This document shows, one piece after another, positions 2,543 through 50,808 of a stretch of DNA of 64,000 bases. Positions within the stretch are counted from its first letter, which is position 1, and the number at the start of each line of letters is the position of its first letter. Position numbers and translations under genes: made by a program. Origin of the DNA: Escherichia coli (GTDB taxonomy: Bacteria; Pseudomonadota; Gammaproteobacteria; Enterobacterales; Enterobacteriaceae); the NCBI RefSeq assembly GCF_009931435.1, contig NZ_CP043414.1; one strand, 5' to 3'. Below the pieces are notes generated by a model, which did not search any database, had not been told where the DNA came from, and saw only the letters and a list, made by a program, of their open reading frames with translations.

Positions 2543-2600
2543 ATGACCTTATGCGACAGAGTTATTAACTGCTGATTGCATTTTCTCCAGAAATCAGTAA

Positions 2601-2927
<327 letters not shown>

Positions 2928-2945
2928 TCTGTCACGGTGGTCATG

Positions 2946-3494
2946 ATGAGCAAACAACTCACCGCGCAAGCACCTGTTGATCCCATCGTTTTGGGAAAAA
3001 TGGGTTCGTCTTACGGTATTCGTGGGTGGCTCAGAGTGTTTTCTTCCACCGAAGACGCCGAAAGCATTTTTGACTATCAGCCCTGGTTTATCCAGAAGGC
3101 GGGTCAGTGGCAGCAAGTCCAGCTGGAAAGCTGGAAGCACCACAATCAGGACATGATCATCAAGCTGAAAGGCGTTGACGATCGTGATGCGGCGAACCTG
3201 CTGACGAATTGTGAAATTGTCGTGGATTCATCGCAGCTGCCTCAGCTTGAAGAGGGTGACTACTACTGGAAAGACCTGATGGGCTGCCAGGTAATAACCA
3301 CTGAAGGCTACGATCTCGGTAAAGTCATCGATATGATGGAAACCGGATCTAATGACGTTCTCGTCATTAAGGCAAACCTGAAAGATGCGTTTGGTATCAA
3401 GGAACGTCTCGTACCGTTCCTCGATGGGCAGGTTATCAAGAAAGTCGATCTCACTACTCGTTCAATCGAAGTAGATTGGGATCCTGGTTTTTAA
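2946..3494 (+). CDS. rimM: Ribosome maturation factor RimM
   Basis: 182 aa from [10 protein letters not shown]...; operon context. Confidence 0.93.
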
Positions 3495-3524
3495 ACCACC
3501 GGATAAACGGTAAAAGACGGCGCT

Positions 3525-4292
3525 ATGTGGATTGGCATAATTAGCCTGTTTCCTGAAATGTTCCGCGCAATTACCGATTACGGGGTAACTGGCCGGGCAG
3601 TTAAAAATGGCCTGCTGAGCATCCAGAGCTGGAGTCCTCGTGACTTCACGCATGACCGGCACCGTACTGTGGACGATCGTCCTTACGGCGGCGGACCGGG
3701 GATGTTAATGATGGTGCAACCTTTACGGGACGCCATTCATGCAGCAAAAGCCGCGGCGGGTGAAGGCGCAAAGGTGATTTATCTGTCACCGCAGGGGCGC
3801 AAGCTTGATCAAGCAGGCGTCAGCGAACTGGCAACGAATCAAAAATTGATTCTGGTGTGCGGTCGCTACGAAGGTATAGATGAGCGCGTGATCCAAACCG
3901 AAATTGACGAAGAATGGTCAATCGGCGATTACGTTCTCAGTGGTGGTGAGTTACCAGCAATGACGCTGATTGACTCCGTTTCCCGGTTTATTCCGGGAGT
4001 ACTGGGACATGAAGCTTCGGCAACGGAAGATTCCTTTGCTGAAGGATTGCTGGATTGCCCGCACTATACACGGCCTGAGGTGTTAGAAGGGATGGAAGTT
4101 CCGTCAGTGTTACTGTCGGGCAACCATGCTGAGATACGTCGCTGGCGTTTGAAACAGTCGCTGGGCCGTACCTGGCTTAGAAGACCTGAACTTCTGGAAA
4201 ACCTGGCTCTGACTGAAGAGCAAGCAAGGTTGCTGGCGGAGTTCAAAACGGAACACGCACAACAGCAACATAAACATGATGGGATGGCGTAA
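3525..4292 (+). CDS. trmD: tRNA (guanine37-N1)-methyltransferase TrmD
   Basis: 255 aa; SPOUT-family sequence; operon context. Confidence 0.95.
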
Positions 4293-4330
4293 GCCCCCGA
4301 GATATCAGTTTACCCAGGATAAGAGATTAA

Positions 4331-4681
<351 letters not shown>

Positions 4682-4711
4682 GATTTCGCTTAAGCGACAT
4701 CCTGTTAAGAA

Positions 4712-4740
4712 GGGCTGGCCAATTGGCTGGCCCTTTTTTT
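4712..4740 (+). terminator. Rho-independent terminator after rplS
   Basis: GC palindrome ggccaattggcc followed by T7 run. Confidence 0.75.
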
Positions 4741-4757
4741 ATCTGTTTGCTCGTGTT

Positions 4758-5240
4758 TTAAGGGGTAGTAATCACTACTGCGACGCGGCGGTTCTCGGCG
4801 CGGCCCTGGGCGGTCTTGTTACTGGCTATGGGATATTTTTTTCCTAAACCCTGTGTGGTGAGGTTGCTGCGCGGAATTTGTCCACCTATAGCCCATGCAT
4901 CGGCCACAACATTCGCCCGTTTCAATGATAAGGCTTCGTTGTAACTGTCTTCACCATAGTTGTCGGTGTGTCCATCCATACGGGCATGCGTTAGCCCTGT
5001 CGAGGCCAATTTGGCTGCCATGGTTTGGATCTGTTGCTGGCTTTCCGGGAGCAATTTGTAGTCATTTTTTGCGAACAGAATGGCATCTGATAATCCCAGC
5101 GACCAGTCGCCGGCGGATTCAGTAAATCCATAAGATTGCATAGCGGCAACTTGCTCAGGAGTAAACTTTCCCTGAGGGGACTGGCAGCCAGTCAGTACTA
5201 GCGAGGTGAAAATCAGGGGTGCTACCAGGTGCTTTATCAT
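4758..5240 (-). CDS. yfiB: OmpA-family outer membrane lipoprotein YfiB
   Basis: 160 aa; lipobox LVLTGC; OmpA-like C-terminal domain; yfiRNB operon. Confidence 0.9.
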   Translation of the reverse strand: MIKHLVAPLIFTSLVLTGCQSPQGKFTPEQVAAMQSYGFTESAGDWSLGLSDAILFAKNDYKLLPESQQQIQTMAAKLASTGLTHARMDGHTDNYGEDSYNEALSLKRANVVADAWAIGGQIPRSNLTTQGLGKKYPIASNKTAQGRAENRRVAVVITTP

Positions 5241-5255
5241 ATCGATATATCCTTG

Positions 5256-6482
5256 TTATCTCACCAGCTTTTCGGCACGCTGGTGTTTGGCCTGATACAT
5301 ATTGTGATCGGCCAGCTCTTGTAATTTTTCCGCAGAGGCATGCTCAATGGTCATCGCGTAACCAATGCTTAATGTCATGGTGGTCTGATGACCATTATGA
5401 AGATCAAACGGGCGATTAAAGATTTGTGTCAGTGCTGAGCATATCCGCTGCACTTCAGATTCCGACTGTACACCATAGAGCACCATCGCGAATTCATCGC
5501 CGCCTATGCGGTATGCTTTATGTTGCAGCCCGCCAAATTCTGCTAACCGTTTTGCTACCTCAATCAAGACCCGATCGCCCGTCGCATGACCCCAGGTATC
5601 GTTGATATATTTAAAATTATCGCCATCAAGAAACAGTAACGCCGACGTTTTTCTGGCATCGGAACTGCTCATCAACGTGTTGATGCCGCTACGAAACGCA
5701 GCCCGGTTCGCCAGCCCGGTTAATGGGTCATGTAGCGCGGTACGTAGAAGCTGCGCATTTTTGGCCTGTAAACGAAGCTGCCACTCTTCCATTTCATCCA
5801 GCAGACTGTTGAAGTCGAGAGCGAAGCGGTGAAACTCAGCGATACGTTCTTCCGAAACTCGTCGGGAAAAATTGCGGTTGGAACGCACATCATGTACGAC
5901 ATCGGTGATATTTTTCAGCGCTTCCACCAGGCCATTGTGCAAATGGCGGGTGAGGGTAATTGCGATGCCTGATGCCAGCAGAATACAACCGGTCAGGACA
6001 GCGAGCGAAAACCAGATAAAATGGCTGATCGAGCTGTCGCGAGCGGTTAAGCGTACTTCGCCAATGGTTTCACCATTGTGACGAATCGGCTGAGTGATGG
6101 GGGCAGGGAAGAGCCAGTGGCTTATGAAATTGCTGAAAGTATCGCCTGGATCCTTACGGGTGTAATGCCAGGATGCCAGAATATTTTGCTGCTTATCACG
6201 CACTTCTGCAGTTGAAAATTGCCCTTGCTTCCCCAGCGCTGCCAGTGTTTGAGTTGCTGCAGGGCCATCGGCAAAAACGACCGCTGCTTCCAGACTGTAA
6301 GTCATTGTTGCTGCTGTCAGTGCCAGGTTTTTTTGCGCGTACTGTTTCAGGGTCAGCACCGAGGTCACGGAAAGCAGCAACCAGATCAGCATCATAGTGA
6401 TAAATATGCTGGTCATACTGATGTTGCGTAATGCTCTTTTAAACGTGGGGCGCTTATTAAGAGAATTATCGTTATCCATCAT
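5256..6482 (-). CDS. dgcN: Diguanylate cyclase DgcN/YfiN (membrane GGDEF protein)
   Basis: 408 aa; N-terminal TM/HAMP region; GGDEF domain with RIGGDEF motif. Confidence 0.93.
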
Positions 6483-6990
6483 TTTTCTTCCGTGCGAGCA
6501 TTAAGACATCTGGGTTCACCTTTACACCGCTACGCGATAAGGCATCCAGGTTTACGGCAAATCTGACGTCATTATTGTGGATGATCAGACAAAAGGCGCT
6601 GCCAATAATGCACTCGGCATTTTGTTCGGCAATTAATAATAACGCCTTTGACGGATATTGTTCGGTTAATTCCATCTGGAATGTTGGTGACTCGTTGCCA
6701 AAATAAAAACCATTGCAGCCTGATATCATCGCCTCTTGTTGAGAGTGAATGATGACAGGCAGATAAGGCAAAGATGTCGCGCCATTCTCTTGTAGGGCGG
6801 TACTAAAACGTGAAGATGAAAAGATACATAACTTTGGTAGGCCTGATAGCGCAGGCCAGCGAGTGTAACTGACAATACCGGAAACCATCGTACGCACGTT
6901 TTTCGCAACGTCTGAAGGTTCCTGAGCGAGTATTGGTGCTCCCGTCAGGAGGAGAATCAGCAGTAAGAACAGACGATGAGAAAAACGCAT
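6472..6990 (-). CDS. yfiR: Periplasmic regulator YfiR (inhibitor of YfiN)
   Basis: 172 aa with signal peptide; overlaps dgcN start; conserved operon. Confidence 0.88.
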
Positions 6991-7139
6991 TCAGGGATCC
7001 TCACCATCTTCGCTTGCAATGCATCGATAATTTTTCAGAATGCTCATTAAAATATCATTCTTTCATGCGGTCGTCATCAATGTGAGAAATAAAACACAAT
7101 GAGTAGAATCTCATGTTTAATTTATTTGTGGGGGGTTAA

Positions 7140-7505
7140 TTAATTTAATCGTATTGTGCTGGCATTTTCATCAGCCCCTTTTTGCCATACTTCATGCAGT
7201 TGGCTGGCATTTTCAACATTGTTGCAGCTGGCAGGAAAGCTTTTACCGGAAAGTCCTCGGGCATAAGTAAAATCGGTCTGGCAAGTTTTCTTTTGTCCTT
7301 CGGCATATCCTTTAAGGTATAGACCGCGATCCGCCTGTGAATCGCTAAATGCATCGTCATCTTTTATGGCGTTGCCCGATATCGCATCTTCCATACCAAC
7401 ATCATACCAGTCGGTGCTGGTCAAGGTTGGCGCGTGAGTATAAGGATCAATCTGACATCCGCTAACCAGTAAAGCCAACAAGGGGGCGATAAACTTTTTC
7501 ATCAT
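7140..7505 (-). CDS. yfiL: Lipoprotein YfiL
   Basis: Start taken at MMKKFIAPLLALLVSGC (lipobox) behind an AGGAG RBS. Confidence 0.75.
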   Translation of the reverse strand: MMKKFIAPLLALLVSGCQIDPYTHAPTLTSTDWYDVGMEDAISGNAIKDDDAFSDSQADRGLYLKGYAEGQKKTCQTDFTYARGLSGKSFPASCNNVENASQLHEVWQKGADENASTIRLN

Positions 7506-11320: not shown

Positions 11321-11347
11321 ACAAAAAACGCGCCCGAAGGTGCGTTG
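11321..11347. repeat. attL: left copy of 27-bp direct repeat (acaaaaaacgcgcccgaaggTgcgttg)
   Basis: Matches 49447..49473 with one mismatch; integrase gene lies just inside. Confidence 0.75.
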
Positions 11348-29115: not shown

Positions 29116-29589
29116 ATGACGCAACTCGCCAGCCTGACGGCATTCATTGAAAACAATCTGCCGGCACGCGCACGCATTCCGTTCACCAGTGACATGGATG
29201 ACATCACGCTCGTTCCGTTTACGAAGTCGCTGGGGCACGGGCAGTTATGTACGCAGGTCCGAAAATATACGGCTTTTCTGCGATGGGACGCATGGCCCTA
29301 TCGTCAGCTCAATCCGGATTTGGTGTTTTCTCTGGTTGAAGCCTGGCTGGCAGACAACGGCGGCGACCTGCGCCAGCGCCTGGCACCGGATGCGCCAGCC
29401 GTTGACGTCGAAGTGGATGATGAAAATGAAGTGGCATGGCTGGAAATCAGTCTGCCGCTGGTTGATCCCATCACCCTGGTTGAGGACGAAAACGGCCCCA
29501 TCCCCAGAGGCGGGAAACGTTACCAGCTGGAAAAGCCTGAAATCTGGGTGGCTCAGGCGCATCAGCTTCACTGCCAGGTGATGCCATGA
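29116..29589 (+). CDS. Putative head-tail joining / tail completion protein (157 aa)
   Basis: Position between head completion and sheath genes. Confidence 0.45.
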   Translation: MTQLASLTAFIENNLPARARIPFTSDMDDITLVPFTKSLGHGQLCTQVRKYTAFLRWDAWPYRQLNPDLVFSLVEAWLADNGGDLRQRLAPDAPAVDVEVDDENEVAWLEISLPLVDPITLVEDENGPIPRGGKRYQLEKPEIWVAQAHQLHCQVMP

Positions 29590-30299
29590 CGCGCCCCGTG
29601 ATTAACGAGTCACAACTCCGGCAGGTTCGTCGCGCCATCAGAGAGGCAGAACTTCCGCCGGCAAAGGCCAGAAAGCTGCTGGTTCGCATTGCGAAATACG
29701 GCCTGATACCGGCTGCACGACGCAATGTGAAAGCACAGCGAACACCGGAGGGGGCAGCCTGGGCACCACGAAAAAGACCGGATAAAGCCGGCGGCAGGTA
29801 TAAAAACAAAATGCTGCTGGGACTGCCGAAACTGCTGGCCATCAGGGTTGACGGCAGCGGGAAAAGTGTCCGCCTTTTCTTCAAAAAAGGGGATTACAAC
29901 ACCGGCTCTCATGGTGGGGCGGTCGCGTGGGTGCAACAGCACGGCGCAACCATCAAAGGCCGCGCCACAAAACGCCGGGACAGCGAAGCCATGCGCACCC
30001 GTCCCGCCACACGACGGCAGGCAGAACGCCTTCTTTCTCTGGGCTTTCGCGCCCCCGTCGGCGCAGTCAACAAAAAAAACGGACGCAGGGGACGCAGAAA
30101 GCCTTCTCTGAAATGGATTATGGAAAACATGAGTATGGCGCAGGCCGGACTGGTGATCAGCATTCTGAAAGGCGAGCAGAAAAAACGTGTATGGGAAATC
30201 AAAATCCCCTCCCGCGCATTTCTGGGAGCCAGCGATGCTGAATTTGCCCGCATTCTGGAAGCGCAGCTGCGCAGCCTGCATTACGGCGGCACGAGATAA
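29586..30299 (+). CDS. Putative virion morphogenesis / tail completion protein (237 aa)
   Basis: Translationally coupled; position before sheath. Confidence 0.45.
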   Translation: MTRPVINESQLRQVRRAIREAELPPAKARKLLVRIAKYGLIPAARRNVKAQRTPEGAAWAPRKRPDKAGGRYKNKMLLGLPKLLAIRVDGSGKSVRLFFKKGDYNTGSHGGAVAWVQQHGATIKGRATKRRDSEAMRTRPATRRQAERLLSLGFRAPVGAVNKKNGRRGRRKPSLKWIMENMSMAQAGLVISILKGEQKKRVWEIKIPSRAFLGASDAEFARILEAQLRSLHYGGTR

Positions 30300-30318
30300 C
30301 AAAATCAGGAGACAAACC

Positions 30319-31467
30319 ATGACATGGCCATCTGTCACGATTGAACAGTACAACACATTCAGCAGTTCACCGGACGGCGTGGAAAATACGCTGCTGTTTG
30401 TGGGCAATGCACAAAACAACAAAGGTGAGGTTCTGCCGGTTAATGCCAACAGCGATCTGGATGAGCTACTGGGAAAGAACGCCAGCCCGCTGAAGAACTT
30501 CCTTCAGTCTGCACTGACCAATGCCGGACAGAATGCCTTTTTCTATGTTGCCGTTCTGCCGGAAGCCGGCAAAGGCAAAGAAGCAACGCCAGCCTGCCAG
30601 GTATGGCAGAACGCCATACTGGCGGCTCAGGAAACTGTTTCAGTTGAAGGCGTGGTGATCACCGAGCCGGTCAGCACGAAGGATGACATCAACGCCATAC
30701 AGGCGTTACGTCAGACCATCATCAATAAATATCAGCGCCGCATCTGGTTCATCCTGACCATCGCCGCCAACGACAACAGTAAAACCTGGGCGGAATACGT
30801 TGCCGAACTGACCGCACTACAGAAAGGCATTGCAGCCCCGCAGGTCATGCTGGTTCCGGAGATTTTTGGATTTGAACCGGGCGTTCTTGCCGGTCGCCTG
30901 TGTAACAGCGCCGTCACCATTGCTGACAGTCCGGCACGTGTGGCAACCGGGCACCTGTCCGCACTGAAAACCACAGAACGCCCGAAAGACAGCACAGGGC
31001 AGGCAATTGATCTCGACACTCTGCAGGCACTGGCAACCGCCCGCTACAGCGTGCCCATGTGGTATGCCGACTATGACGGCCTTTACTGGGCTGACGGTGT
31101 AACACTTGAGGTGGAAGGCGGGGACTACAACGTCATTGAGCATGTCCGCATTGCTGATAAGGTGGCGCGCCGCGTGCGGCTGATGGCCATCCCCAAGATT
31201 GCCGACCGCTCGCTGAACAGCACGCCGGGCAGCATTGCCGCACATGAAACGCTGTTTGCCCGCCCACTGCGTGCCATGGCGAAATCCATGCAAATTAACG
31301 GCATCACGTTTCCGGGCGAAGTGAAATCGCCCCGGAAAGGCGACGTGGTTATCACCTGGCAGGACGAAAAGACGGTCAGCATCAGCATTGTCGTCCGCCC
31401 TTACGCCTGCCCTAAAACCATCAAAGTGGGCATTCAGCTGGATAAATCTCTGGAGGAAAACGCATGA
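30319..31467 (+). CDS. Tail sheath protein (382 aa, start at MTWPSVTIEQ)
   Basis: AGGAGA RBS; size; immediately upstream of tube gene. Confidence 0.65.
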   Translation: MTWPSVTIEQYNTFSSSPDGVENTLLFVGNAQNNKGEVLPVNANSDLDELLGKNASPLKNFLQSALTNAGQNAFFYVAVLPEAGKGKEATPACQVWQNAILAAQETVSVEGVVITEPVSTKDDINAIQALRQTIINKYQRRIWFILTIAANDNSKTWAEYVAELTALQKGIAAPQVMLVPEIFGFEPGVLAGRLCNSAVTIADSPARVATGHLSALKTTERPKDSTGQAIDLDTLQALATARYSVPMWYADYDGLYWADGVTLEVEGGDYNVIEHVRIADKVARRVRLMAIPKIADRSLNSTPGSIAAHETLFARPLRAMAKSMQINGITFPGEVKSPRKGDVVITWQDEKTVSISIVVRPYACPKTIKVGIQLDKSLEENA

Positions 31468-41758: not shown

Positions 41759-42330
41759 TGAAAATAATCGACATAAAGGCGATGAAATACCTGGAAGACG
41801 GGTCTGTTTCCTGTGAAGTGTTGTTTGGAGGGCGGGCTGATTATATTCCTTATCGTGCAGTGGAAAATGATTCTGCTGCATCAGGCCAGCGGGTATGGGG
41901 AACACTGATGAGCGGTGAGTTTGGTGAAATCATCCCCTTCACTGTAACAGCAGAGATGCTGGACAAAGAAAAAGAACTGAAAAAAGAGGAAATCAGGCGC
42001 TGGCGAACAGAACAGGAGGCGCAGCCGTTCACATTCGAATGGAACAGCAGCACATGGAATGGAGGAAAATCCTCACTGGAACGCTTATTCCCGGCAGTGA
42101 TGGCAGCAAAATCTGGTGTGGCACACAATGCCACAGTATGGAGTGATGCAAATAACCAACAAATTAAATTGTCACAACAAAAGCTGGAAGAACTACTTAC
42201 GGCAATGGTGCAGGCTCAGGCTGCACGCAACGATGAGATTTACCTGCGCCAGCGTGAGATGAAAAACACGCTGGCCACACTGAATAACATTGCTGCAATT
42301 AGGGCATTTCAGGTGGGCAAAGCAGAATGA
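41758..42330 (+). CDS. Tail fibre assembly chaperone 2 (190 aa, start at MKIIDIKAMKY)
   Basis: Downstream of fibre 2; internal Met coupled to fibre stop. Confidence 0.65.
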   Translation: MKIIDIKAMKYLEDGSVSCEVLFGGRADYIPYRAVENDSAASGQRVWGTLMSGEFGEIIPFTVTAEMLDKEKELKKEEIRRWRTEQEAQPFTFEWNSSTWNGGKSSLERLFPAVMAAKSGVAHNATVWSDANNQQIKLSQQKLEELLTAMVQAQAARNDEIYLRQREMKNTLATLNNIAAIRAFQVGKAE

Positions 42331-43040
42331 AATGGAAAGAGGTAATTTTACGTCCGTCTGCCATAAACATTAAATGTTCTGTGGTTTGTCTTCATCCGTG
42401 GTCAGAAAATACCGGAAACATCAAACCATCGGGGCGTTATCTCAGCCCCGAAAATGCTGTATCTGCACTTTTACCCTACCTGAAAGAAAGCACAGAAAAA
42501 GACATTGTGGCGCTGTTGTTTTGCGCTCCTTCTGCTGGCGAGTTTTTATCACTCGCCAGGCAATTTTCAGGCGCATTTCCATTGCCAGAGGTGGGGCGAA
42601 TGTCCCGCATGATTTCCAGTCAACTTTCACTGGCCATCAGCAGAATGCAAATCCCCGCCAGACCGGCAACATCACTTCCGGAACCGATAATGCTGTCGAC
42701 ACAGACCACTCGCAGCATGTCGCTGGCAGCAACCATTGCACAGGCAGCCACTCCTGCCGCCACATCACCGGAAACATTGTCATCATCGCTGCATCAGTTC
42801 ATGAATGCGAGAGATAAAGCCTTACAGGAAATCGCTGATCAGCAGGCCGCACTCCGGCAAAAAGTTTGCCCGGTGTGGCGCTTTTGCTACAAGGGAGCCC
42901 TTAGCCAGGCTGCAGTGCTGATACAAAAAAACATCCCACACCCCGAGTGGGTTTTTACAGCTGTGATGCTGTTCGTCGGCGATAATCTCTCATCACTAAG
43001 GGAAGCACTACATGACCCAGATGATTGTCCTTGCGCTTGA
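42327..43040 (+). CDS. Hypothetical protein (237 aa), function unknown
   Basis: Translationally coupled ORF between fibre chaperone and baseplate/spike genes. Confidence 0.5.
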   Translation: MKWKEVILRPSAINIKCSVVCLHPWSENTGNIKPSGRYLSPENAVSALLPYLKESTEKDIVALLFCAPSAGEFLSLARQFSGAFPLPEVGRMSRMISSQLSLAISRMQIPARPATSLPEPIMLSTQTTRSMSLAATIAQAATPAATSPETLSSSLHQFMNARDKALQEIADQQAALRQKVCPVWRFCYKGALSQAAVLIQKNIPHPEWVFTAVMLFVGDNLSSLREALHDPDDCPCA

Positions 43041-43587
43041 CGGGGAAGCCATTCTGCTGCGTAACATCACCGTCAGCGCCACCATGCAACTACCGGACAA
43101 AGATATGTCCGGACAGTCAACCAGCACCACGAGCGCCCAGCAGGGAAACAAGGCTAAAGAGCTGCGCGTGTCGGGGGTTATTGATTTTAACGATGAAGCT
43201 ATTCTGACCCGTATTTTTCAGCTTGCGGAGGCAACAGAAAGCAACGGTGCTAAAAAAACATATCGCATTGCTAACGCTACCGCGAAGGCAATCAATATGC
43301 GACAGGGGGTGTTTTCTGGTGGCATTGATGCCACGGAACAACAGGGAAAAATGCACTGGCAGATCACCTTTACTCTCAGGGAAAAATTAAGCGTGCCAGA
43401 GAAAGCATCCGCACGCAGCGGTTCGCAGAAAACCATCGCCAGACAGCAGACCCAGAATGGCAGCGAACAGGTACCAGACAAAGGCATGAATACGCAAAGT
43501 TCGTTCTGGAAAAAAATCAATGATGCCGTTGGCTCTGGTCTGGATGCTGTTGGCATCGGGAGCGTGAAAGAGGAAGGGAAAACATGA
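43012..43587 (+). CDS. Hypothetical tail/baseplate-associated protein (191 aa)
   Basis: AAGGGA RBS; coupled to downstream spike gene. Confidence 0.5.
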   Translation: MTQMIVLALDGEAILLRNITVSATMQLPDKDMSGQSTSTTSAQQGNKAKELRVSGVIDFNDEAILTRIFQLAEATESNGAKKTYRIANATAKAINMRQGVFSGGIDATEQQGKMHWQITFTLREKLSVPEKASARSGSQKTIARQQTQNGSEQVPDKGMNTQSSFWKKINDAVGSGLDAVGIGSVKEEGKT

Positions 43588-45281
43588 AATTGATACAACG
43601 CTGCATGATTAATGGCGAACGGGTGGAAATTGCCGATATAAGCCTTGTTCTTACCCTGAATGCTGCCGGTCGTGGCTTCATTTCTGTTAACAATCTGTCA
43701 CCCGAACACAGCCTTGCCGGCGCAATGGTACAAATTGATCTCGGCCGTGACGGTGAAGCATGGCGCTATTTCTCCGGCTACATTGAGCGCGATCAACCTG
43801 CTGAAAATGGCTCACGTCGCCTTTTTATTCGTGAAGCGGCTGCTGTGCTGGATTTTGATTTCCCTTGCTCCATGCAACACCCGACGTTGCGGGGGGTACT
43901 CGATAATCTGGGGCGACAAAGCGGTATCGTTTTTATCACTCCGGATGCGGATTATGCCAGTATACCAACTCCCTACATCACCCACAGCGGCAGCGGAGCA
44001 CAACTGCTCAGCCAACTGGGGCGAGCATTCAGTATCAGCGATTACGTCTGGCACCCTATGCCGGACGGTTCTGTATTTGTGGGAAGCGCAGCTGATTCAC
44101 GATTTGCCAGTATTACAATGCCGGATATTCCGCAACAGTACACACTCGGGCAAAGCGGCGGAAACAGCATCGACATCATGTTTATGGAAACTGTGCGACC
44201 GGGCGTGAACCTACCGGCCGGGCGCATTACCCGTGTAGCCCTCAACAACGAGAAAATGACCCTGACATGGGAGCGCCTTACCGCCACGGGTACCCCTGTT
44301 TCCAAATCACCATTACGCAGACAAATGGAAACACAGTTCCCAGAACTGGCCAGCGGTACGCTACATACCCGGCTGGCGCGCGTCATTGCGCCAACGGAGC
44401 CCACCACCCTGGGCGACGTGGCCGACAGTTTCCGCCCACGCTACGCCGTCGATGTGCAGTTGCTTGATGAGAACGGCAACGATAAAAGCGACACGCCCGT
44501 TTACCCGGCAGTACCGCTCCCCGTCCCCATGGCTGGCAGTGAGGCGGGATGTTTTGCCTACCCACCGGCAGGCACCATCGTGGAAATATCCAACATTGAA
44601 GGACGTCCGGACAAACCCGTTATCAGGCAAATCTTACCCGCTGGCCATAACCTGCCTGATGTAAAGCCCGGCGAACAGCTGCAGCAACAGCGCGCAGAAG
44701 TGTTTCAGCGCGTCACGACTGACGGAAGCTGGCACAGAGAAACCGATCAGCAAATCAGGGAGCATTCAGCCAGACGAACCATTAACAGCGATCAGGAAGA
44801 ACGCACAACAACAACCAGAACAACAACAGTACAGGCAAACGACATAACCAGCGTTCTGGGAACCAGCAAGCTGATGACAGGCCAGACAGAACACATTACT
44901 ACTGGTCATTATGCGATCGCAGCCGGTGAGCATATCCAGATGGTAGCGCAGGATTTGCTGACTAAACTCAAAGGGGCGACATCCACGATTGAGCGCGACC
45001 TTACTGAAAACGTGGGAGGCCGCAGAACATGCCGGGCGGACGGTGGTCTGGAGTTTACAGCCCCGACAGTATTTATTGGTCGCGGTGGCTCACGGGAAAA
45101 ATCCGGACTTAATCTGCTGACGTTGTTGATTGATATTCTGGATCTGGTTCAGTTGCTGGCCACACACACTGCAAACCACACCCACAGCAACACCGGCGCA
45201 CCAACAAACAACAGCGAACTTGCCGCAGACGCCAAACAGGCTACGAGCCTGCGCGAAAAATACGGTGACCTTATCGCCTGA
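43584..45281 (+). CDS. Baseplate central spike protein (gpV-like C-terminal domain)
   Basis: C-terminal THTANHTHSNTGAPT resembles the His-rich tip motif of P2 gpV as recalled; 565 aa. Confidence 0.55.
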   Translation: MKLIQRCMINGERVEIADISLVLTLNAAGRGFISVNNLSPEHSLAGAMVQIDLGRDGEAWRYFSGYIERDQPAENGSRRLFIREAAAVLDFDFPCSMQHPTLRGVLDNLGRQSGIVFITPDADYASIPTPYITHSGSGAQLLSQLGRAFSISDYVWHPMPDGSVFVGSAADSRFASITMPDIPQQYTLGQSGGNSIDIMFMETVRPGVNLPAGRITRVALNNEKMTLTWERLTATGTPVSKSPLRRQMETQFPELASGTLHTRLARVIAPTEPTTLGDVADSFRPRYAVDVQLLDENGNDKSDTPVYPAVPLPVPMAGSEAGCFAYPPAGTIVEISNIEGRPDKPVIRQILPAGHNLPDVKPGEQLQQQRAEVFQRVTTDGSWHRETDQQIREHSARRTINSDQEERTTTTRTTTVQANDITSVLGTSKLMTGQTEHITTGHYAIAAGEHIQMVAQDLLTKLKGATSTIERDLTENVGGRRTCRADGGLEFTAPTVFIGRGGSREKSGLNLLTLLIDILDLVQLLATHTANHTHSNTGAPTNNSELAADAKQATSLREKYGDLIA

Positions 45282-45880
45282 TCACCGGGCATACCCCCCC
45301 ATAAACGCCCATCACGCAACGCACGGCTCCGGTCGTGCGTTTTCATATCTGCCACCTGATTAATGCGTTCTGCGTGCCATTCTGGCGCTGTATGCGCACA
45401 CCGCGTAAACGGTGTGACGTAAAGCGTGAGGTGACGTAAACCGCGCTACCCCCTCCAACCCGCGGGTTTCGTGTCGAAACAGTTTTTCAGTTTTCTGCCG
45501 TGCAAAAATGACCGCCAGCCCGCGCAGCAACTGAGGGAAAAGCGAAGATCTGAAATTTCACGCTTTGAAATTTTTTGCAGTTTTCAAAGTGGTTTTTACG
45601 ATCGCACAAATGGCCGGAGCAATAAAACCGCATGATATTAAAAGAGTTTTCATACTTTACGCGAGACAAAAAAACGATCACGAAAGGATCGCATCAAACA
45701 GCCATCAAACAAAGAAGGCAGACACGGCGCGGCCTGCACAAAATTAAGCTCCAAAATAAAACTGAAAAAAAGGATCGCAACAAGAAGAAAAGCGCGTAAA
45801 ACGATCGCTGCTGATGTGGCGTTTCTTTATACAAGCTGCTATTTGCGATATGCTGAACACATCAACCTGTGGAGTGCATT

Positions 45881-46507
45881 ATGAAACGAAAATCAAAGTC
45901 TGCTGCCATTGCTGCTATTACTACAGCTCTGACAGCATCACTGGCTCCGGTGCCAGCTAAAAGCACGATACTACCAACAACAGTTATTGAATCCGCGACA
46001 CACGCCAGAGTGGTTTCAATGCTTACATTTGAGCATCATGATGGTCAGGTGTTTCTGCCTCTCGAAGAAGCTATTGAATATATCAACGGGCTGAATGACA
46101 ACATGCGCGCCGCGCTCAATGCAGTCATTGAAGAACGACAGAACAGAGGCAAGGGAGCACTGTTTACTGACAAAACCGCAAAAATCATAAAAATATGCGA
46201 AGAGTCAATTAAGCAGCACACCCGTGTTAAAGAGGCTGTCAAAATTGTAATGGATCCGGATAACCTGGCAAAAATGTATCCGGATAGCCTGGAGCAAAGA
46301 ATCGCCTATCGCAATAAACTGGTTCGTTTTGGTCGGGCAATTGCGCAGGGAGAGTTTATCGCTCGTGATGCCATCAACACCATCAAACGAAGCACCGCAC
46401 CAGACAAAACAACCAGCCTGGGCAATACGCTGTCTGACGGAAATGTGAAAGCAATGATTATTGCCGAGCATAAAAACATGGGACTCCCGGCACCGGAGTT
46501 TTCCTGA
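45881..46507 (+). CDS. Hypothetical protein (208 aa) with signal-peptide-like N-terminus, coupled to the YafO-like gene
   Basis: GGAG RBS before MKRKSK; N-region/hydrophobic stretch MKRKSKSAAIAAITTALTASLAPVPA; TGATG overlap with next gene. Confidence 0.6.
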   Translation: MKRKSKSAAIAAITTALTASLAPVPAKSTILPTTVIESATHARVVSMLTFEHHDGQVFLPLEEAIEYINGLNDNMRAALNAVIEERQNRGKGALFTDKTAKIIKICEESIKQHTRVKEAVKIVMDPDNLAKMYPDSLEQRIAYRNKLVRFGRAIAQGEFIARDAINTIKRSTAPDKTTSLGNTLSDGNVKAMIIAEHKNMGLPAPEFS

Positions 46508-46887
46508 TGGCAAGCAAAGTAAGCATTCATAAAGATGTTGAATACCAGGACATTGCAAAAGTTTACGGAAAGGCTCTGGAAAACTGGTTAAATACCGGTG
46601 TTCTCCCTGACAGATTCGGCAATGAAGGGCAGTGGGAAGATAACGCAAGATTATGTGGTTCGTTTGTATATAAATTACACATAAGACTACCGTCAGAACC
46701 ACCATGGAAGAAAAGCAAAGCCCAAATAGACAGAACTTCAAATATCTATCTGGTTTATACAAGGCACTGGATGGATTATGACAATATACAAATCATCAGC
46801 ATCATGGCCCCAGATGCTCACGAAAAAGCCAAAACTTCTTTCATGGCTGAACTGGAAAGACGGGCTGAAGAATTCCAGAACTCATAA
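46507..46887 (+). CDS. YafO-family toxin-like protein (126 aa)
   Basis: Blocks GVLPDRFGNEG, HIRL, YLVYTR and C-terminal ISIMAPDAHEKAK...AEEF resemble E. coli YafO as I recall it. Confidence 0.55.
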   Translation: MASKVSIHKDVEYQDIAKVYGKALENWLNTGVLPDRFGNEGQWEDNARLCGSFVYKLHIRLPSEPPWKKSKAQIDRTSNIYLVYTRHWMDYDNIQIISIMAPDAHEKAKTSFMAELERRAEEFQNS

Positions 46888-46907
46888 ATTGCCTGATTTT
46901 CTCTCAG

Positions 46908-46942
46908 AAACCCGCAGCGTAAAAACTGTGGGTTTTCTTTTT
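46908..46942 (+). terminator. Rho-independent terminator after the YafO-like operon
   Basis: Hairpin aaacccgcag...ctgtgggttt followed by T-run. Confidence 0.65.
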
Positions 46943-47178
46943 GCTACCCTGATACGTGAGGGTAGCACTCAAAGTGAGGCAATATGTAGGCAACCTATTT
47001 AATACGTAAAAATTAATGCATTAAATGGATATTTACTAGCATGGGTACTGGCTTAAAATATCACAACCCTGTTTTATAACGTACTGAATTTATTAGGTGT
47101 GACGGTTTTCCAATGGGGCTTCCGACATTACGTTCAGCTGATGCTTTTCTTATGTAACGAGAAGACATATATTGGTAA

Positions 47179-47234
47179 GCGATGAAGCGATGAAGCGATG
47201 AAGCGATGAAGCGATGAAGCGATGAAGCGATGTA
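47179..47234. repeat. Octanucleotide tandem repeat (GCGATGAA) x6 plus one degenerate unit, flanked by ATGTAACG
   Basis: Directly visible; about 95 bp upstream of the ATPase start codon. Confidence 0.95.
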
Positions 47235-47251
47235 ACGTCTGTTTGGTTATA

Positions 47252-47296
47252 AACTTCACACTAATAATTTCTAAATGAAATTATTAGTGTGAAGTT
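47252..47296. promoter_or_regulatory. 20-bp perfect inverted repeat (aacttcacactaataatttc / gaaattattagtgtgaagtt, 5-nt spacer): candidate operator or 5'-UTR hairpin
   Basis: Perfect palindrome ending 34 bp upstream of the ATPase ATG; RBS AAGGAA follows. Confidence 0.6.
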
Positions 47297-47329
47297 GATG
47301 TTTATTGTGATTATAACTAAGGAATTAAA

Positions 47330-48799
47330 ATGAAATTATCTCCAGCAGAATTGAAGTTAGAAAGGGGTAAGGTTCAAGATAATAAATTCAATCAATATGT
47401 TAAACGTATCACATTAAAAAATGTCAGAGGGTTTGATGAGGAAATTGTGGAGTTTAAAACACCAGTTACAGCTCTTATCGGGACTAATGGTGGAGGGAAG
47501 TCGACTATATTAGGTGCTGTAGCTCTCGCTTATAAAAATGTTAAGCCAAGCAAGTTTTTCCCTAAATCATTTTATGGGGATGATTCAATGAGTGATTGGG
47601 AAATTGGATTCGAATTGATTGACAAGCCTATTTCAAAAGATAAAAATATTAACAGGACTGCAAAATTTAAACAGATGAAATGGCGCAGAGATAATTTCCC
47701 AGAGCGAAATGTTGTATATGTAGAAATACAAAGAACTGTTCCTGCAGGCGAACTAACTAAGTTTAATAAATTTTTATCTGGCGATGCTAAACAATTTGAA
47801 GAAAAAAATCTCAACCCTGAGACAATAAAATATTGCTCTGCCGTTTTAGATAAAAAGATAGAAGATTACAGATGTATAATAAATAAGCACGATCCATCTT
47901 CAAGAATGTTTGTAGGTAAGGCAATTAATGGTTCTGGTTATTCTCAGTTCCATTTTGGTGCAGGTGAAGCATCAATAATAGATACTATTGATAGAATAGA
48001 GACTGCTGCTGATAATTCTCTTGTTTTAATTGAAGAAATTGAAAATGGACTGCATCCTGTTGCAGTGCGGTTGTTTGTTAACTATTTGACAAATGTAGCA
48101 AAGAGGAAAAAGCTGCAAATAATATTTACAACACATTCGCAGGATGCAGTAAACGAGCTAGAGCCAGAAGCTGTTTGGGCTTCTATTAACAAAAAAGTAT
48201 GGAATGGTAAACTAAGTATTGAAAGTTTACGCGCTATAACGGGACAGAAGATAAATTCGAAAGTTATATATGTTGAAGATTCTTTTGCAAAAGAGTGGGT
48301 TGAAAATGCGATGGATCGATATATTCCAGAACTAGCCTCAACAATAAAAGTCTACACGGCAGGTGGTTACCCCAGCGTGGTTAAAGTAAGTCAATATCAT
48401 AATGAGAACCCTACTATAAATTATCCATCAATCGCATTAGTTGATGGGGATATTAAAGGTAGACCCGGAACTAAAGATCTGCCTGATAATGCAATGTTCA
48501 TCGGGGATGATTATCCTGACGCTACGGTTTTTCATTATATTGCAAATAACATAGAAGAAAATGCCTCAGTTTTGAGGCAAAGATGTTTGTTAACAAGATT
48601 TGACGCTGAAAAGATTAAATCGGAAGTTGAGAGTGTGATGCATTCTGCATGTGATCACCATGTTTATTTTACTAGATTAAGTGATAAATTAGATTTTGCC
48701 TCAGAACTATTCATTCGAGCTGGTATGATAGATTTATTTAATGAGAAAAATCCAGAATTTTGGTCCCCAATTATGGACTTCATTAAAAAAGGTCTATAG
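47330..48799 (+). CDS. OLD-family-like ABC ATPase fused to Toprim/DUF4435-like domain (489 aa); candidate antiphage defence protein
   Basis: Walker A GTNGGGKST, Walker B LVLIEEIE, H-loop TTHS; C-terminal YVEDS (Glu) and ALVDGD (DxD); AT-rich gene. Confidence 0.65.
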   Translation: MKLSPAELKLERGKVQDNKFNQYVKRITLKNVRGFDEEIVEFKTPVTALIGTNGGGKSTILGAVALAYKNVKPSKFFPKSFYGDDSMSDWEIGFELIDKPISKDKNINRTAKFKQMKWRRDNFPERNVVYVEIQRTVPAGELTKFNKFLSGDAKQFEEKNLNPETIKYCSAVLDKKIEDYRCIINKHDPSSRMFVGKAINGSGYSQFHFGAGEASIIDTIDRIETAADNSLVLIEEIENGLHPVAVRLFVNYLTNVAKRKKLQIIFTTHSQDAVNELEPEAVWASINKKVWNGKLSIESLRAITGQKINSKVIYVEDSFAKEWVENAMDRYIPELASTIKVYTAGGYPSVVKVSQYHNENPTINYPSIALVDGDIKGRPGTKDLPDNAMFIGDDYPDATVFHYIANNIEENASVLRQRCLLTRFDAEKIKSEVESVMHSACDHHVYFTRLSDKLDFASELFIRAGMIDLFNEKNPEFWSPIMDFIKKGL

Positions 48800-48865
48800 T
48801 AATAATGCAAAAATATAATATTTAGTTTGCGATTTATATTTTTCATAATGAATTGTTGAGAAAAT

Positions 48866-48901
48866 AAGAGAGCATCGAAAATTGAGGCTCTCTTATTTTT
48901 A
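48866..48901 (+). terminator. Rho-independent terminator after the ATPase gene
   Basis: Hairpin aagagagc...gctctctt followed by T-run. Confidence 0.7.
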
Positions 48902-48959
48902 TGAGATATCTCTAATGTATTAATCGTTTTATTTTGGTGCTACCACCACTGATGCTAAC

Positions 48960-49346
48960 TTGTCGATCAGACATTCGCACTATTCAATATCTTTTAGGCT
49001 CCGCAATGAAAACGCCCCCGAAGGAACAATCCCCCGTCAATCGGTTGCCAAAGGCCATTTAGGTAAATCGCCTTCGAGGTCGTTCGATGGCTGCATGACG
49101 TTCCCGGTTATCCCGTCAAAGAAAATGCACTCGACCGGAAAACCAGAAGAACTAATGGCGGAGTTGGTCAGGACTGCGAATAGTGGCGGAACAGTCCTTG
49201 ATCCTTTTATGGGGCCAGGGACAACGGGTGTGGCTGCACTGAAAGCAGGGCGAAAATTTATTGGTATAGAGACCAGTGATCATTATTTTGAAGTAGCAGC
49301 ACAGCGACTTCGGGGGACTATTACCACAACCATTTCGACTACATAA
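48960..49346 (+). pseudogene. 3' fragment of a beta-class DNA methyltransferase gene (N6-adenine or N4-cytosine), N-terminally truncated
   Basis: HSTGKPEELMAEL and VLDPFMGPGTTGVAALKAGRKFIGIE (SAM-binding FxGxG) present; no catalytic DPPY region upstream. Confidence 0.6.
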
Positions 49347-49446: not shown

Positions 49447-49473
49447 ACAAAAAACGCGCCCGAAGGCGCGTTG
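49447..49473. repeat. attR: right copy of the 27-bp direct repeat; also the raiA terminator hairpin
   Basis: acaaaaaacgcgcccgaaggcgcgttg; perfect hairpin acgcgcc/ggcgcgt plus T-run on the raiA strand. Confidence 0.75.
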
Positions 49474-50028: not shown

Positions 50029-50808
50029 CTAAATCGCTTCAGTTTCACAACTAACAGAATAAAAAAACGGCAGCTCAAGGCTGTAATGCCAGTCAGTTAA
50101 GCAACTGACTGGCTCTTTTTCGGGGCTGTGGGGTATTTCCAGGGCCTCTCCTTTACCACTCTCGGGAAGGCCCTTTCCCTTCTTGTCGGTAATTTCACTG
50201 GCTGTCCCATACTTGCAAGATCGCGCATCAGCTCCGGTATACGTCCCGGTGAAGCGCATGGCGTCCGTCATCGACGTCAGCAGATGGCTGGTCAGTTCCA
50301 TCTGGCAGACCATTTTGACCTGCGGGTAGAGCGCCGGGTTCCCGGCATGTGTCTGGCGGGGGAAGGCTGCATCGTTCTCTGGTGTATCCGGTGTGCGCCA
50401 GAACACACCATCGATGGCCAGCAGGGTCAGGCTGCACCAGTGCGGATGCAGCGTGGCGTTATGCCAGAGCTGCGCTGTTTTCGTGAACACGCGGCGGACA
50501 GCCTCACTTCCCAGGCGCTGGCGGGCCTGAATAACGGCACTGGGGGCAACGAAGGGGCGATTGCCCGGCAGCATGATGTCCAGGCGATTCACAATCTGGT
50601 GAAGAGGTTCTTTACGCTCAAGCGCCATGCCAACAATACACCAGACCATCATTTCGAGGGGAAGACGGCGCTTGCGTAGCGTTACAGTACCTGATTCGGC
50701 AAGGCAACGAGAGATGAGTTCGGGGTCGAGGTAATCCCCCAGAAAAGTCAGTGGGTTACGCAGAGAATCGTAACGGGATACCAAATCAAGGGCCTGTCCA
50801 ATGAGCAT
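50029..50808 (-). pseudogene. Truncated/frameshifted IS4 transposase (InsG N-terminal ~200 aa fused to out-of-frame tail)
   Basis: N-terminal sequence matches IS4 InsG as recalled, then diverges after HLLTSMTDAMRF. Confidence 0.75.

What the first reader, a model, noticed from the sequence alone, without database searches (positions are those of the whole stretch)
47330..48799. AT-rich single-gene cassette encoding an OLD-like ABC-ATPase/Toprim fusion at the prophage right end: candidate antiphage defence gene
The 489-aa product has an N-terminal ABC-type ATPase (Walker A GTNGGGKST, Walker B LVLIEEIE, H-loop TTHS) and a C-terminal region with the Glu...DxD signature of Toprim/DUF4435 nucleases (YVEDS, ALVDGD). 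This architecture is shared by P2 Old, Gabija GajA and PARIS AriA/AriB, but the protein is more compact than those and has no visible partner gene (no helicase, no reverse transcriptase). The gene and its flanks are visibly far more AT-rich than the rest of the prophage, it has its own terminator, and it abuts a truncated methyltransferase gene, so it looks like a recently acquired cassette in a prophage cargo position.
Basis: partly seen in the sequence, partly recalled or inferred. Interest (0 to 1): 0.8.

Follow-up and report, generated by a model that had tools for sequence, protein, structure and literature searches.

The report
Known HEC-04 antiphage gene in prophage
The gene is real and encodes a one-protein phage-defence enzyme (an ATP-driven sensor fused to a nuclease), but it belongs to the HEC-04 family, which was described and tested in 2024, so it is a new member of a known kind.

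Summary
A 489-aa ORF (47330..48799, +) lies in a 2.08-kb AT-rich segment (34.6% GC against 51.6 +/- 2.9%) next to attR of a P2-family prophage inserted between pheL and raiA.

The protein matches PADLOC's HEC-04 model over its full length (E = 6e-204). It is 42% identical to the E. coli HEC-04 shown in 2024 to protect against T4 and T5 as a single gene. The four residues essential there (K62, E319, D375, D377) align with K57, E316, D372 and D374, which are invariant in 33 homologues.

Neighbouring genes differ in every context examined, so no partner gene is conserved. An identical protein is already in public databases, and 16 of 5426 complete E. coli genomes carry the gene.

The defence interpretation is supported, but novelty is low. 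The trigger and the nuclease substrate (tRNA or DNA) remain open for the whole family.

The parts
46971..49048 (.). AT-rich cassette (2078 bp, 34.6% GC) carrying the defence gene with its own upstream region and terminator
   Evidence: The left border is where homology with strain rl0044 begins, just after that strain's intact MTase terminator. The right border is where MTase homology begins.
47330..48799 (+). HEC-04-family gene, 489 aa: ABC ATPase fused to a TOPRIM nuclease
   Evidence: ORF. PADLOC PDLC04149 E = 6e-204 over residues 2-488. 42% identity to the tested HEC-04. 100% identical to database cluster P0001.
47396..48184 (+). ABC-type ATPase domain (about residues 23-285): Walker A 51-59 (K57), Q-loop region 133-141, GAGE 210-213, Walker B 231-238, H-loop 267-270
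   Evidence: Pfam AAA_15, AAA_21, AAA_23 and SMC_N. These motifs are invariant in 33 homologues. Full-model Foldseek hits are OLD, GajA, PtuA and Rad50.
48191..48796 (+). C-terminal TOPRIM core plus helical region (residues 288-489): E316/D317 after strand 1, A344-G-G346 after strand 2, D372-G-D374 after strand 3, then invariant Q417, R418, D442, H444
47177..47232 (.). Perfect 8-bp tandem repeat (AAGCGATG) x7 upstream of the gene; copy number varies between strains
   Evidence: TRF gives 7.0 copies at 100% match. Four strains carry 7, 7, 8 and 13 copies while the flanks are invariant.
47252..47296 (.). Perfect 20-bp inverted repeat with a 5-nt loop, 34 nt upstream of the start codon; overlaps promoter-like hexamers on both strands. 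Candidate operator, insulating terminator or 5'-UTR hairpin; function not determined
   Evidence: Scan. RNA fold -27.0 kcal/mol, z = -8.1. Invariant in 4 strains.
47319..47323 (+). Shine-Dalgarno-like AAGGA, 6 nt before the ATG
   Evidence: Read directly from the sequence.
48860..48901 (+). Intrinsic terminator of the defence gene (hairpin followed by a U-run)
   Evidence: Fold -21.9 kcal/mol, z = -5.0, with 0 of 200 shuffles as stable. Sequence.
49049..49346 (+). 3' remnant (99 codons) of a prophage DNA methyltransferase gene, a pseudogene
   Evidence: Homology to intact 263-268-aa MTase genes starts at query position 100, which is window 49049. PGAP note: 'missing N-terminus'. PADLOC MTase_II and PHROG 67 match it.
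49447..49466 (.). attR core, a 20-bp direct repeat of attL (11321-11340), overlapping the raiA terminator
   Evidence: Exact 20-bp repeat found. It occurs only twice in the window at up to 3 mismatches, with 0 expected by chance.
11321..11340 (.). attL core of the P2-family prophage, next to the integrase gene and downstream of pheL
   Evidence: Prophage gene content comes from the syntenic ETEC1717 annotation.
46907..46936 (+). Terminator of the upstream YafO-like module. It insulates the cassette from upstream transcription and is shared with strain ST69, where it follows hok
   Evidence: Scan. Fold -15.8 kcal/mol, z = -4.1. Alignment.

Best explanation
The gene is a member of the HEC-04 family of single-protein antiphage defences. 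A P2-family prophage carries it as a self-contained cassette (a moron with its own upstream region and terminator) at the attR-proximal cargo position.

Proposed mechanism:
1. The N-terminal ABC ATPase, whose variable inserts lie between Walker A and the signature motif, acts as the infection sensor. It binds or hydrolyses ATP through K57, the Walker B residues E235/E236 and H269.
2. On sensing a phage cue, it releases or activates the fused C-terminal TOPRIM nuclease.
3. The TOPRIM metal site (E316, D317, D372, D374) cleaves nucleic acid and halts phage production, probably by an abortive-infection route that is toxic to the cell.

What is shown here: the architecture, family membership, conservation of the catalytic residues, the lack of a conserved partner gene, and the cassette's mobility between prophage backbones.

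What is shown in the literature for a 42%-identical homologue: defence against T4 and T5, loss of defence in Walker A and E/D/D mutants, and toxicity on over-expression.

What is inferred: the sensor-effector coupling, the abortive outcome and the substrate. I lean towards tRNA (about 45%) over DNA (about 35%). The two best structural matches of the TOPRIM half, AriB and a class 1 OLD, belong to families whose prototypes (AriB itself and P2 OLD) are now reported to be tRNases. In addition, the distant relative IbfA does not block phage DNA replication.
For: - PADLOC HEC-04 model PDLC04149: E = 6e-204, 676 bits, residues 2-488 on profile positions 5-488 of 494. The C-terminal half alone still scores E = 1.6e-62.
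- 42% identity over 378 aligned residues to the tested E. coli HEC-04, WP_044502283.1, with K62/E319/D375/D377 aligned to K57/E316/D372/D374. Those four residues are invariant in 33 homologues down to 43% identity.
[quoted passage not shown] Its K62A and E319A/D375A/D377A mutants lose defence, and it is toxic with IPTG induction. It is active against T4, T5 and other coliphages (citing the preprint).
- Pfam finds AAA_15, AAA_21 and AAA_23 on residues 24-272.
- The full-length AF2 model (pLDDT 84.5) has Ts OLD 6p74 as its top Foldseek hit (E = 7e-13), followed by GajA.
- No partner gene is conserved. There are three different upstream neighbours in E. coli and unrelated neighbours in Pantoea, Xanthomonas and Methylorubrum.
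- Cargo status: 34.6% GC against 51.6%, its own terminator, and a position inside the att repeats.
- Substrate lean: AriB is a tRNase (PMC12409363). P2 OLD is reported as a tRNase with no dsDNA cleavage (bioRxiv 10.64898/2026.07.10.737580). With IbfA, phage DNA replication proceeds while late gene expression falls (PMC12111858).
Against: - This particular protein has never been tested. It is only 42% identical to the tested HEC-04, and only the first 399 residues of that protein were available for comparison.
- No sequence profile recognises the C-terminal domain as TOPRIM. DUF4435 scores E = 0.21, PDB sequence profiles give nothing and NCBIfam gives nothing. The TOPRIM call therefore rests on predicted structure, with moderate scores (Foldseek E about 1e-2, TM 0.48).
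- The substrate is unknown. Gabija GajA and retron Eco8, which share the architecture, cut DNA.
- HEC-04 protects against T4 and T5, phages that carry large tRNA sets. This is neutral to mildly unfavourable for a tRNA target.
- The IbfA authors argue that ATP is not depleted and propose transcriptional imbalance rather than nuclease action. IbfA is only 28% identical over 60% of the protein.
Confidence: 0.85

Rival explanations
1. It is a single-chain (fused) PARIS system: an AriA-like sensor and an AriB-like tRNase in one compact polypeptide, triggered by phage anti-restriction proteins such as Ocr.
For: - The only Pfam hint for that domain is DUF4435, the AriB family, placed on the E...DxD segment.
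- PADLOC AriA model PDLC02979 matches at E = 1.1e-25.
- PARIS proteins are sometimes fused into one polypeptide (PMC12409363).
- PARIS is typical cargo of P2-like phages (background knowledge).
Against: - The AriA match covers only about 72 residues around Walker B (200-271), whereas the HEC-04 model scores 676 bits over the full length.
- No AriB model in PADLOC matches the C-terminal domain even at E <= 10.
- DUF4435 is far below threshold (E = 0.21; 0 of 19 members reach E <= 0.001).
- At 489 aa the protein is much smaller than AriA plus AriB (55 + 35 kDa).
- The HEC-04 authors describe the ATPases of HEC-04 and PARIS as structurally distinct.
Confidence: 0.1
2. It is a canonical class 1 OLD-family nuclease, an orthologue of P2 Old occupying a prophage cargo slot.
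For: - The best full-length structural match and the best PDB sequence match are both the class 1 OLD from Thermus scotoductus, 6p74 (Foldseek E = 6.9e-13; phmmer E = 2.8e-9).
- It is a single-gene ATPase-TOPRIM protein in a P2-family prophage, like P2 old.
- PGAP names it 'ATP-dependent nuclease'.
Against: - Sequence similarity to 6p74 is confined to Walker A and Walker B (residues 24-94 and 230-271).
- The PADLOC Old model matches only residues 224-276 (E = 9e-15, against 6e-204 for HEC-04).
- No OLD-type Toprim Pfam family matches at any E <= 10.
- Structural identity is 9-15%.
- The model shows no long helical dimerisation insert. Insert 1 is a beta-sheet extension, as described for HEC-04.
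Confidence: 0.04
3. It is not an autonomous defence gene. Either it works with the adjacent YafO-like toxin module, or it is an inert or decaying passenger left by recombination at the prophage end.
For: - It lies 443 bp downstream of a two-gene YafO-family module.
- It sits next to a pseudogene (the truncated MTase), so the region has a history of rearrangement.
- It is rare, present in 16 of 5426 complete E. coli genomes.
Against: - The YafO module and the HEC-04 cassette occur independently. About 16 genomes carry the YafO module elsewhere without an adjacent HEC-04, and about 10 carry HEC-04 without the adjacent YafO pair.
- Terminators separate the two modules.
- The ORF is intact and all catalytic and family-invariant residues are retained.
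- Its upstream region is invariant across backbones.
- A homologue works alone.
Confidence: 0.03

Closest known systems
HEC-04 (Hma-embedded candidate 4; PADLOC-DB PDLC04149; tested representative E. coli MOD1-EC5853 WP_044502283.1; Payne et al., bioRxiv 10.1101/2024.01.29.577857)
   Same: Same length (489 aa; the tested representative is encoded by a 1473-nt gene). Same single-polypeptide ABC ATPase plus C-terminal TOPRIM architecture. Full-length HMM match (E = 6e-204). 42% identity, with all four experimentally essential residues conserved. Both function, or appear to function, without a partner gene.
   Different: The genomic setting is a P2-family prophage attR cargo slot rather than a position embedded in an Hma system. 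At 58% divergence, the sensor inserts (about residues 80-200) differ most, so phage specificity may differ. This protein is untested.
IbfA of IncI1 plasmids R64 and pUA1135 (PMC12111858)
   Same: A single ATPase-TOPRIM protein reported as a HEC-04 homologue. It gives an abortive-infection-like phenotype and is carried on a mobile element.
   Different: Only 28% identity, covering residues 29-320. IbfA is 518 aa and plasmid-borne. Its C-terminal half did not align by tblastn.
PARIS AriA/AriB (and fused AriAB variants)
   Different: PARIS is normally two genes forming a 425-kDa complex. There is no significant DUF4435 or AriB profile match, and the AriA profile matches only the Walker B segment. 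This protein is far more compact.
Class 1 OLD nucleases (P2 Old; Thermus scotoductus OLD, PDB 6p74)
   Same: A single-gene ABC ATPase-TOPRIM protein. 6p74 is the best full-length structural hit, and the prototype is P2 prophage cargo. P2 OLD is now reported as an abortive tRNase.
   Different: 9-15% identity. No OLD-type Toprim profile match. Different ATPase inserts, with no long helical dimerisation region in the model. The invariant residues in the C-terminal helical region are Q417, R418, D442 and H444, and no invariant Lys occurs there.
Gabija GajA (class 2 OLD) and retron type I-B / Eco8 ATPase-Toprim effectors
   Same: The same two-domain logic. GajA ranks 2nd to 5th in the full-length Foldseek search. 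The PADLOC ATPase-Toprim_I-B model is the only non-HEC-04 model that reaches into the TOPRIM core (E = 5.6e-4 on the C-terminal domain alone).
   Different: Those systems need partners (the GajB helicase, or a reverse transcriptase plus msDNA), and none is present here. They cut DNA. Their proteins are larger (about 580-750 aa).

Membership tests
HEC-04 (PADLOC PDLC04149) | Full-length match to the family HMM | tested here: met
   E = 6e-204, 676 bits, residues 2-488 on profile positions 5-488 of 494. The C-terminal half alone scores E = 1.6e-62.
HEC-04 (PADLOC PDLC04149) | Single polypeptide with an N-terminal ABC-type ATPase and a C-terminal TOPRIM domain | tested here: met
HEC-04 (PADLOC PDLC04149) | Conservation of the residues shown to be essential (Walker A K62; TOPRIM E319, D375, D377) | tested here: met
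   They align with K57, E316, D372 and D374, which are invariant in 33 homologues.
HEC-04 (PADLOC PDLC04149) | Acts alone, with no conserved partner gene | tested here: met
   Neighbours differ in three E. coli backbones and in three distant genera.
HEC-04 (PADLOC PDLC04149) | Confers phage resistance | not testable with these tools
   Shown only for the 42%-identical representative. Testing this protein needs plaque assays.
PARIS (AriA/AriB, including fused forms) | AriB-type DUF4435 TOPRIM recognisable by profile | tested here: not met
   DUF4435 scores E = 0.21, and 0 of 19 family members reach E <= 0.001. No PADLOC AriB model matches at E <= 10. The resemblance is at the fold level only.
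PARIS (AriA/AriB, including fused forms) | AriA-type ATPase over its full length | tested here: not met
   The AriA model's best stretch covers residues 200-271 only, on profile positions 300-370 of 373.
Class 1 OLD nucleases | OLD-type Toprim domain and OLD ATPase recognisable by family profiles | tested here: not met
   No OLD-type Toprim Pfam hit. The PADLOC Old model matches only residues 224-276. The PDB 6p74 sequence match is limited to the Walker A and Walker B segments.
Class 1 OLD nucleases | Overall fold: ABC ATPase followed by TOPRIM in one chain | tested here: met
   6p74 is the top Foldseek hit of the full model (E = 6.9e-13, 586 aligned columns).
Gabija (GajA/GajB) | Adjacent UvrD-like helicase GajB | tested here: not met
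   No helicase is present in the cassette or its flanks. The GajA models match only the Walker A and Walker B stretches.
IbfA (R64-type) | Close sequence relationship to plasmid IbfA | tested here: not met
   28% identity over residues 29-320 by tblastn against 72,556 plasmids. It is a distant relative only.

The most novel reading that the evidence does not exclude
HEC-04-type proteins, including this one, may be minimal single-chain versions of the PARIS/P2-OLD logic: the fused TOPRIM would be a tRNA anticodon-arm nuclease rather than a DNase. This would fit the AriB-best structural match and the IbfA phenotype, in which phage DNA replicates but late expression collapses. In addition, the polymorphic (AAGCGATG)n tract and the perfect 20-bp palindrome upstream may tune or phase-vary expression of a toxic gene in the lysogen. 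Neither the substrate nor the trigger of any HEC-04 member has been published in the literature I could search.
Probability: 0.35. Interest if true: 0.5.

Novelty: new member of a known kind. Interest (0 to 1): 0.25.

Why it matters
It adds a natural example of HEC-04 as prophage cargo at the attR end of P2-family prophages. The same cassette has moved between at least three different prophage backbones integrated at the raiA terminator. A 36%-identical homologue sits next to the integrase of a Burkholderia P2-like phage. This extends the known settings of HEC-04 from 'embedded in Hma systems' to the cargo hotspots of Peduoviridae prophages. It also offers a 58%-divergent variant for comparing sensor specificity. 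The finding does not reveal a new kind of system. The real open questions, trigger and substrate, concern the family as a whole.

Tried and rejected
- Sequence-profile confirmation of the TOPRIM failed. Pfam on the full protein gave no C-terminal hit. Pfam on a 19-sequence C-terminal alignment gave only DUF4435 at E = 0.21. An hmmsearch of that profile against all PDB sequences gave only noise (E >= 0.44). NCBIfam gave nothing. Only fold comparison worked.
- I tested whether the cassette plus MTase remnant is a leftover of an earlier tandem prophage by looking for a third att core. None was found at up to 3 mismatches, so I dropped that idea.
- I asked whether the YafO-like pair is a partner. 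It is not, because the modules occur independently.
- I asked whether IbfA is a close relative. It is not: 28% identity over part of the protein.
- Literature searches by protein accession (WP_057108823, WP_032167339, WP_044502283) found nothing.
- Pfam on the 212-aa upstream protein found nothing significant.
- The repeat finder on the two att regions as separate regions could not compare them with each other. A short script found the att repeat instead.
- The terminator scanner missed the gene's terminator because of its loop-length limit. Folding confirmed it.
Full report
**1. Observation**

All the quoted motifs are present:
- GTNGGGKST at residues 51-59, with the Walker A lysine at K57
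- LVLIEEIE at 231-238
- TTHS at 267-270
- YVEDS at 314-318
- ALVDGD at 369-374

The drop in GC content is large. The segment 46971-49048 is 34.6% GC and the gene's GC3 is 0.25. The 1156 other 2078-bp windows have a mean of 51.6%, an SD of 2.9% and a minimum of 44.7%.

A hairpin followed by a U-run at 48860-48901 folds at -21.9 kcal/mol (z = -5.0), so the gene has its own terminator. The scanner missed it only because of its loop-length limit.

Downstream lies a methyltransferase remnant. Homology to intact 263-268-aa prophage MTase genes starts at window position 49049, so the TTG start at 48960 is not a real start. PGAP annotates the same remnant as 'missing N-terminus'.

**2. The protein**

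Pfam finds AAA_15, AAA_21, AAA_23 and SMC_N on residues 24-272 and nothing significant beyond that.

PADLOC gives a full-length match to the HEC-04 model PDLC04149: E = 6e-204, 676 bits, residues 2-488. The next best models score far lower and cover only the Walker segments. These are AriA (1e-25), NsnB, PDC-M07A, retron ATPase-Toprim_I-B, AbiLi, PtuA, GajA and Old. NCBIfam has no model above its cutoff. PHROG 3940, of unknown function, matches at 7e-98.

- It was found embedded in Hma systems.
- Its native-promoter clone reduced plaquing.
- K62A and E319A/D375A/D377A mutants lost defence.
- IPTG induction was toxic.

PMC12111858 summarises its range as T4, T5 and other coliphages but not T7 or lambda. 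That paper also links HEC-04 to IbfA of IncI1 plasmids.

The tested representative is E. coli WP_044502283.1 (Table S2). The window protein is 42% identical to it over 378 aligned residues. K62, E319, D375 and D377 align with K57, E316, D372 and D374. Only the first 399 residues of the tested protein were available to me.

IbfA itself is distant, at 28% identity over residues 29-320.

**3. Family and conservation**

An identical protein is already in public databases. It is cluster P0001, with 379 member sequences, named 'AAA family ATPase' or 'ATP-dependent nuclease'. At least 2186 proteins match at E <= 1e-10, across Enterobacterales, Xanthomonas, Rhizobiales, Rhodobacterales and others.

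In a 33-sequence alignment that goes down to 43% identity, the invariant positions are:
- the Walker A motif, N53-T59
- R135-T-V-P-A139 and E141
- Y204-S-Q-F-H-F-G-A-G-E213
- the Walker B region, L231...E235, E236, E238
- T267-T-H-S270
- in the C-terminal half: E316, D317, A344-G-G346, H357, N360, D372-G-D374, Q417, R418, D442 and H444

**4. Testing the TOPRIM claim independently**

Sequence profiles do not recognise the C-terminal 200 residues:
- DUF4435 reaches only E = 0.21, and 0 of 19 members reach E <= 0.001.
- A profile search of PDB sequences gives only noise.
- NCBIfam gives nothing.
- PADLOC on this half alone matches only HEC-04 (1.6e-62) and, weakly, the retron I-B ATPase-Toprim model (5.6e-4). 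No AriB, AbiLii, Old or GajA model matches.

Structure does recognise it.
- The full-length AF2 model (pLDDT 84.5) has the class 1 OLD of Thermus scotoductus (6p74) as its best Foldseek hit (E = 6.9e-13, 586 aligned columns). GajA, retron PtuA, Eco8 and Rad50 follow.
- Foldseek ranks the Xcc and Bp OLD C-terminal regions and AriB in the top five, at E about 1e-2 and TM up to 0.48.

In the model, E316 follows the first strand, A-G-G346 the second and D-G-D374 the third. This is the classical TOPRIM arrangement (plus established knowledge of the fold).

**5. Genomic setting**

The surrounding element is a P2-family prophage. The syntenic ETEC1717 annotation shows an integrase, Cox, a gpA-type replication endonuclease, Ogr, portal, terminase, GPO scaffold and a P2-type major capsid. 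The prophage is bounded by a 20-bp direct repeat, ACAAAAAACGCGCCCGAAGG, at 11321-11340 and 49447-49466. The repeat overlaps the raiA terminator and occurs only twice in the window, with 0 expected by chance. The cassette and the MTase remnant are therefore inside the prophage.

Sixteen of 5426 complete E. coli genomes carry the cassette, always on the chromosome and at 98-99.6% identity. It occurs in at least three backbones:
- This window and ETEC1717: tail genes, a 565-aa gene, a 212-aa plus YafO-like pair, the cassette, then the MTase remnant.
- ST69: ogr, hok, the cassette, then the MTase remnant.
- rl0044: ogr, hok, TM2, Com, an intact MTase, the cassette, then the MTase remnant.

In more than 100 other genomes the same slot holds hok, TM2, Com and an intact MTase, with no cassette.

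The YafO pair occurs on its own at another chromosomal locus in about 16 genomes. The cassette is thus an independent, mobile unit whose insertion or recombination truncated or duplicated the MTase 3' end.

Distant homologues have unrelated neighbours. These are a conjugation module in Pantoea, an Mrr-like/ParD/RhuM island in Xanthomonas, and housekeeping genes in Methylorubrum. No partner gene is conserved. The Burkholderia P2-like phage phiE094 carries a 36%-identical homologue next to its integrase, split into two ORFs.

**6. Upstream region**

Between the YafO terminator (46907-46936) and the start codon lie:
- a perfect (AAGCGATG)x7 tract at 47177-47232
- a perfect 20-bp inverted repeat at 47252-47296 (-27 kcal/mol, z = -8.1)
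- an AAGGA Shine-Dalgarno sequence at 47319-47323

Four strains carry 7, 7, 8 and 13 copies of the 8-bp unit, while everything else in the upstream region is invariant. Promoter-like hexamers are no more frequent than in shuffled sequence (14 against 10.9 +/- 3.5), so I do not assign a promoter. Whether the repeat and the palindrome regulate this toxic gene is an open inference.

**7. Mechanism**

Architecture, family membership, catalytic-residue conservation and autonomy are shown. By homology to the tested HEC-04, ATP binding or hydrolysis and the TOPRIM metal site are both needed for defence.

I infer that the ABC ATPase is the sensor and the TOPRIM the effector, as the HEC-04 authors and the PARIS and OLD literature propose.

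The substrate is unknown. AriB cleaves tRNA (PMC12409363). A 2026 preprint reports that P2 OLD is a tRNase with no dsDNA activity. GajA and retron Eco8 cut DNA. AriB and a class 1 OLD are the two best structural matches, and IbfA leaves phage DNA replication intact. I therefore lean towards tRNA (about 45%) over DNA (about 35%).

**8. Comparison and verdict**

The protein passes every testable membership criterion for HEC-04. It fails the profile-based criteria for PARIS, class 1 OLD, Gabija and close IbfA kinship, while sharing their overall logic.

This is a new, untested member of a known kind in a new setting, the attR cargo slot of P2-family prophages.

Interest is 0.25. The most novel reading still open is that HEC-04 proteins are minimal single-chain tRNases with repeat-tuned expression. 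I put its probability at about 0.35 and its interest, if true, at about 0.5.

Noticed in passing
window 45869-46887 (+): A two-gene module: a 212-aa protein (45869-46507) whose stop overlaps by 1 nt the start of a 126-aa YafO-family toxin homologue (46507-46887). The toxin matches NCBIfam NF007377 at E = 7e-11, below its cutoff, and PHROG 1651 at 3e-24. The 212-aa protein has no Pfam, PADLOC, NCBIfam or PHROG match, and some RefSeq records label it 'SufA', which looks like a misannotation. It may be an atypical antitoxin. The module occurs alone at another chromosomal site in about 16 genomes.
   Followed up: partly
window 50029-50808 (-): An N-terminal fragment of an IS4-family transposase (NF033592, E = 3e-34, profile positions 3-154 of 332) in a GC-rich (~0.6) insert between raiA and bamD. 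The raiA-bamD gap is 1094 bp here, against 271 bp in ETEC1717, which lacks the insert.
   Followed up: partly
window 47177-47232: A perfect 8-bp tandem repeat (AAGCGATG)x7 upstream of the defence gene. Four E. coli strains carry 7, 7, 8 and 13 copies while the flanks are invariant, which suggests slipped-strand variation. Each unit pair reads ATG-AAG-CGA-TGA (a mini-ORF). Any effect on expression is untested.
   Followed up: partly
window 47252-47296: A perfect 20-bp inverted repeat with a 5-nt loop (-27 kcal/mol, z = -8.1), 34 nt upstream of the start codon. It overlaps promoter-like hexamers on both strands and is invariant across strains. It could be an operator, a terminator or a 5'-UTR element.
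   Followed up: partly
L005 (E. coli rl0044) 4179-7430, compared with window 46971-49346: In rl0044 the cassette sits between an intact Com-MTase pair and the 3' MTase remnant, so it is flanked by a direct duplication of the MTase 3' end plus terminator. This arrangement could allow loss of the cassette by homologous recombination and hints at how it was acquired.
   Followed up: partly
L003 (E. coli CFS3292) 4137-6298: The usual cargo at this attR-proximal slot in P2-family prophages at raiA is ogr, hok/gef, a TM2-domain protein, a Com-family regulator and a DNA methyltransferase. The Com-plus-MTase pair resembles phage Mu com-mom. More than 100 genomes carry the intact MTase.
   Followed up: no
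L011 (Burkholderia phage phiE094, Peduoviridae) 2328-3940: A HEC-04 homologue (36% identity, 98% coverage) lies next to the integrase of a P2-like Burkholderia phage. It is annotated as two overlapping 'AAA family ATPase' ORFs, which suggests a frameshift or sequencing error, and is followed by a large deaminase-domain gene.
   Followed up: no
window 29586-45281: The prophage combines P2-type replication, lysogeny and head genes with a tail module that differs from the contractile-tail P2-like prophages carrying the same cassette in ST69 and rl0044. This module has a DUF2586 protein, a 698-aa tape measure, baseplate J and a 565-aa hypothetical protein. The prophage is therefore a mosaic.
   Followed up: no
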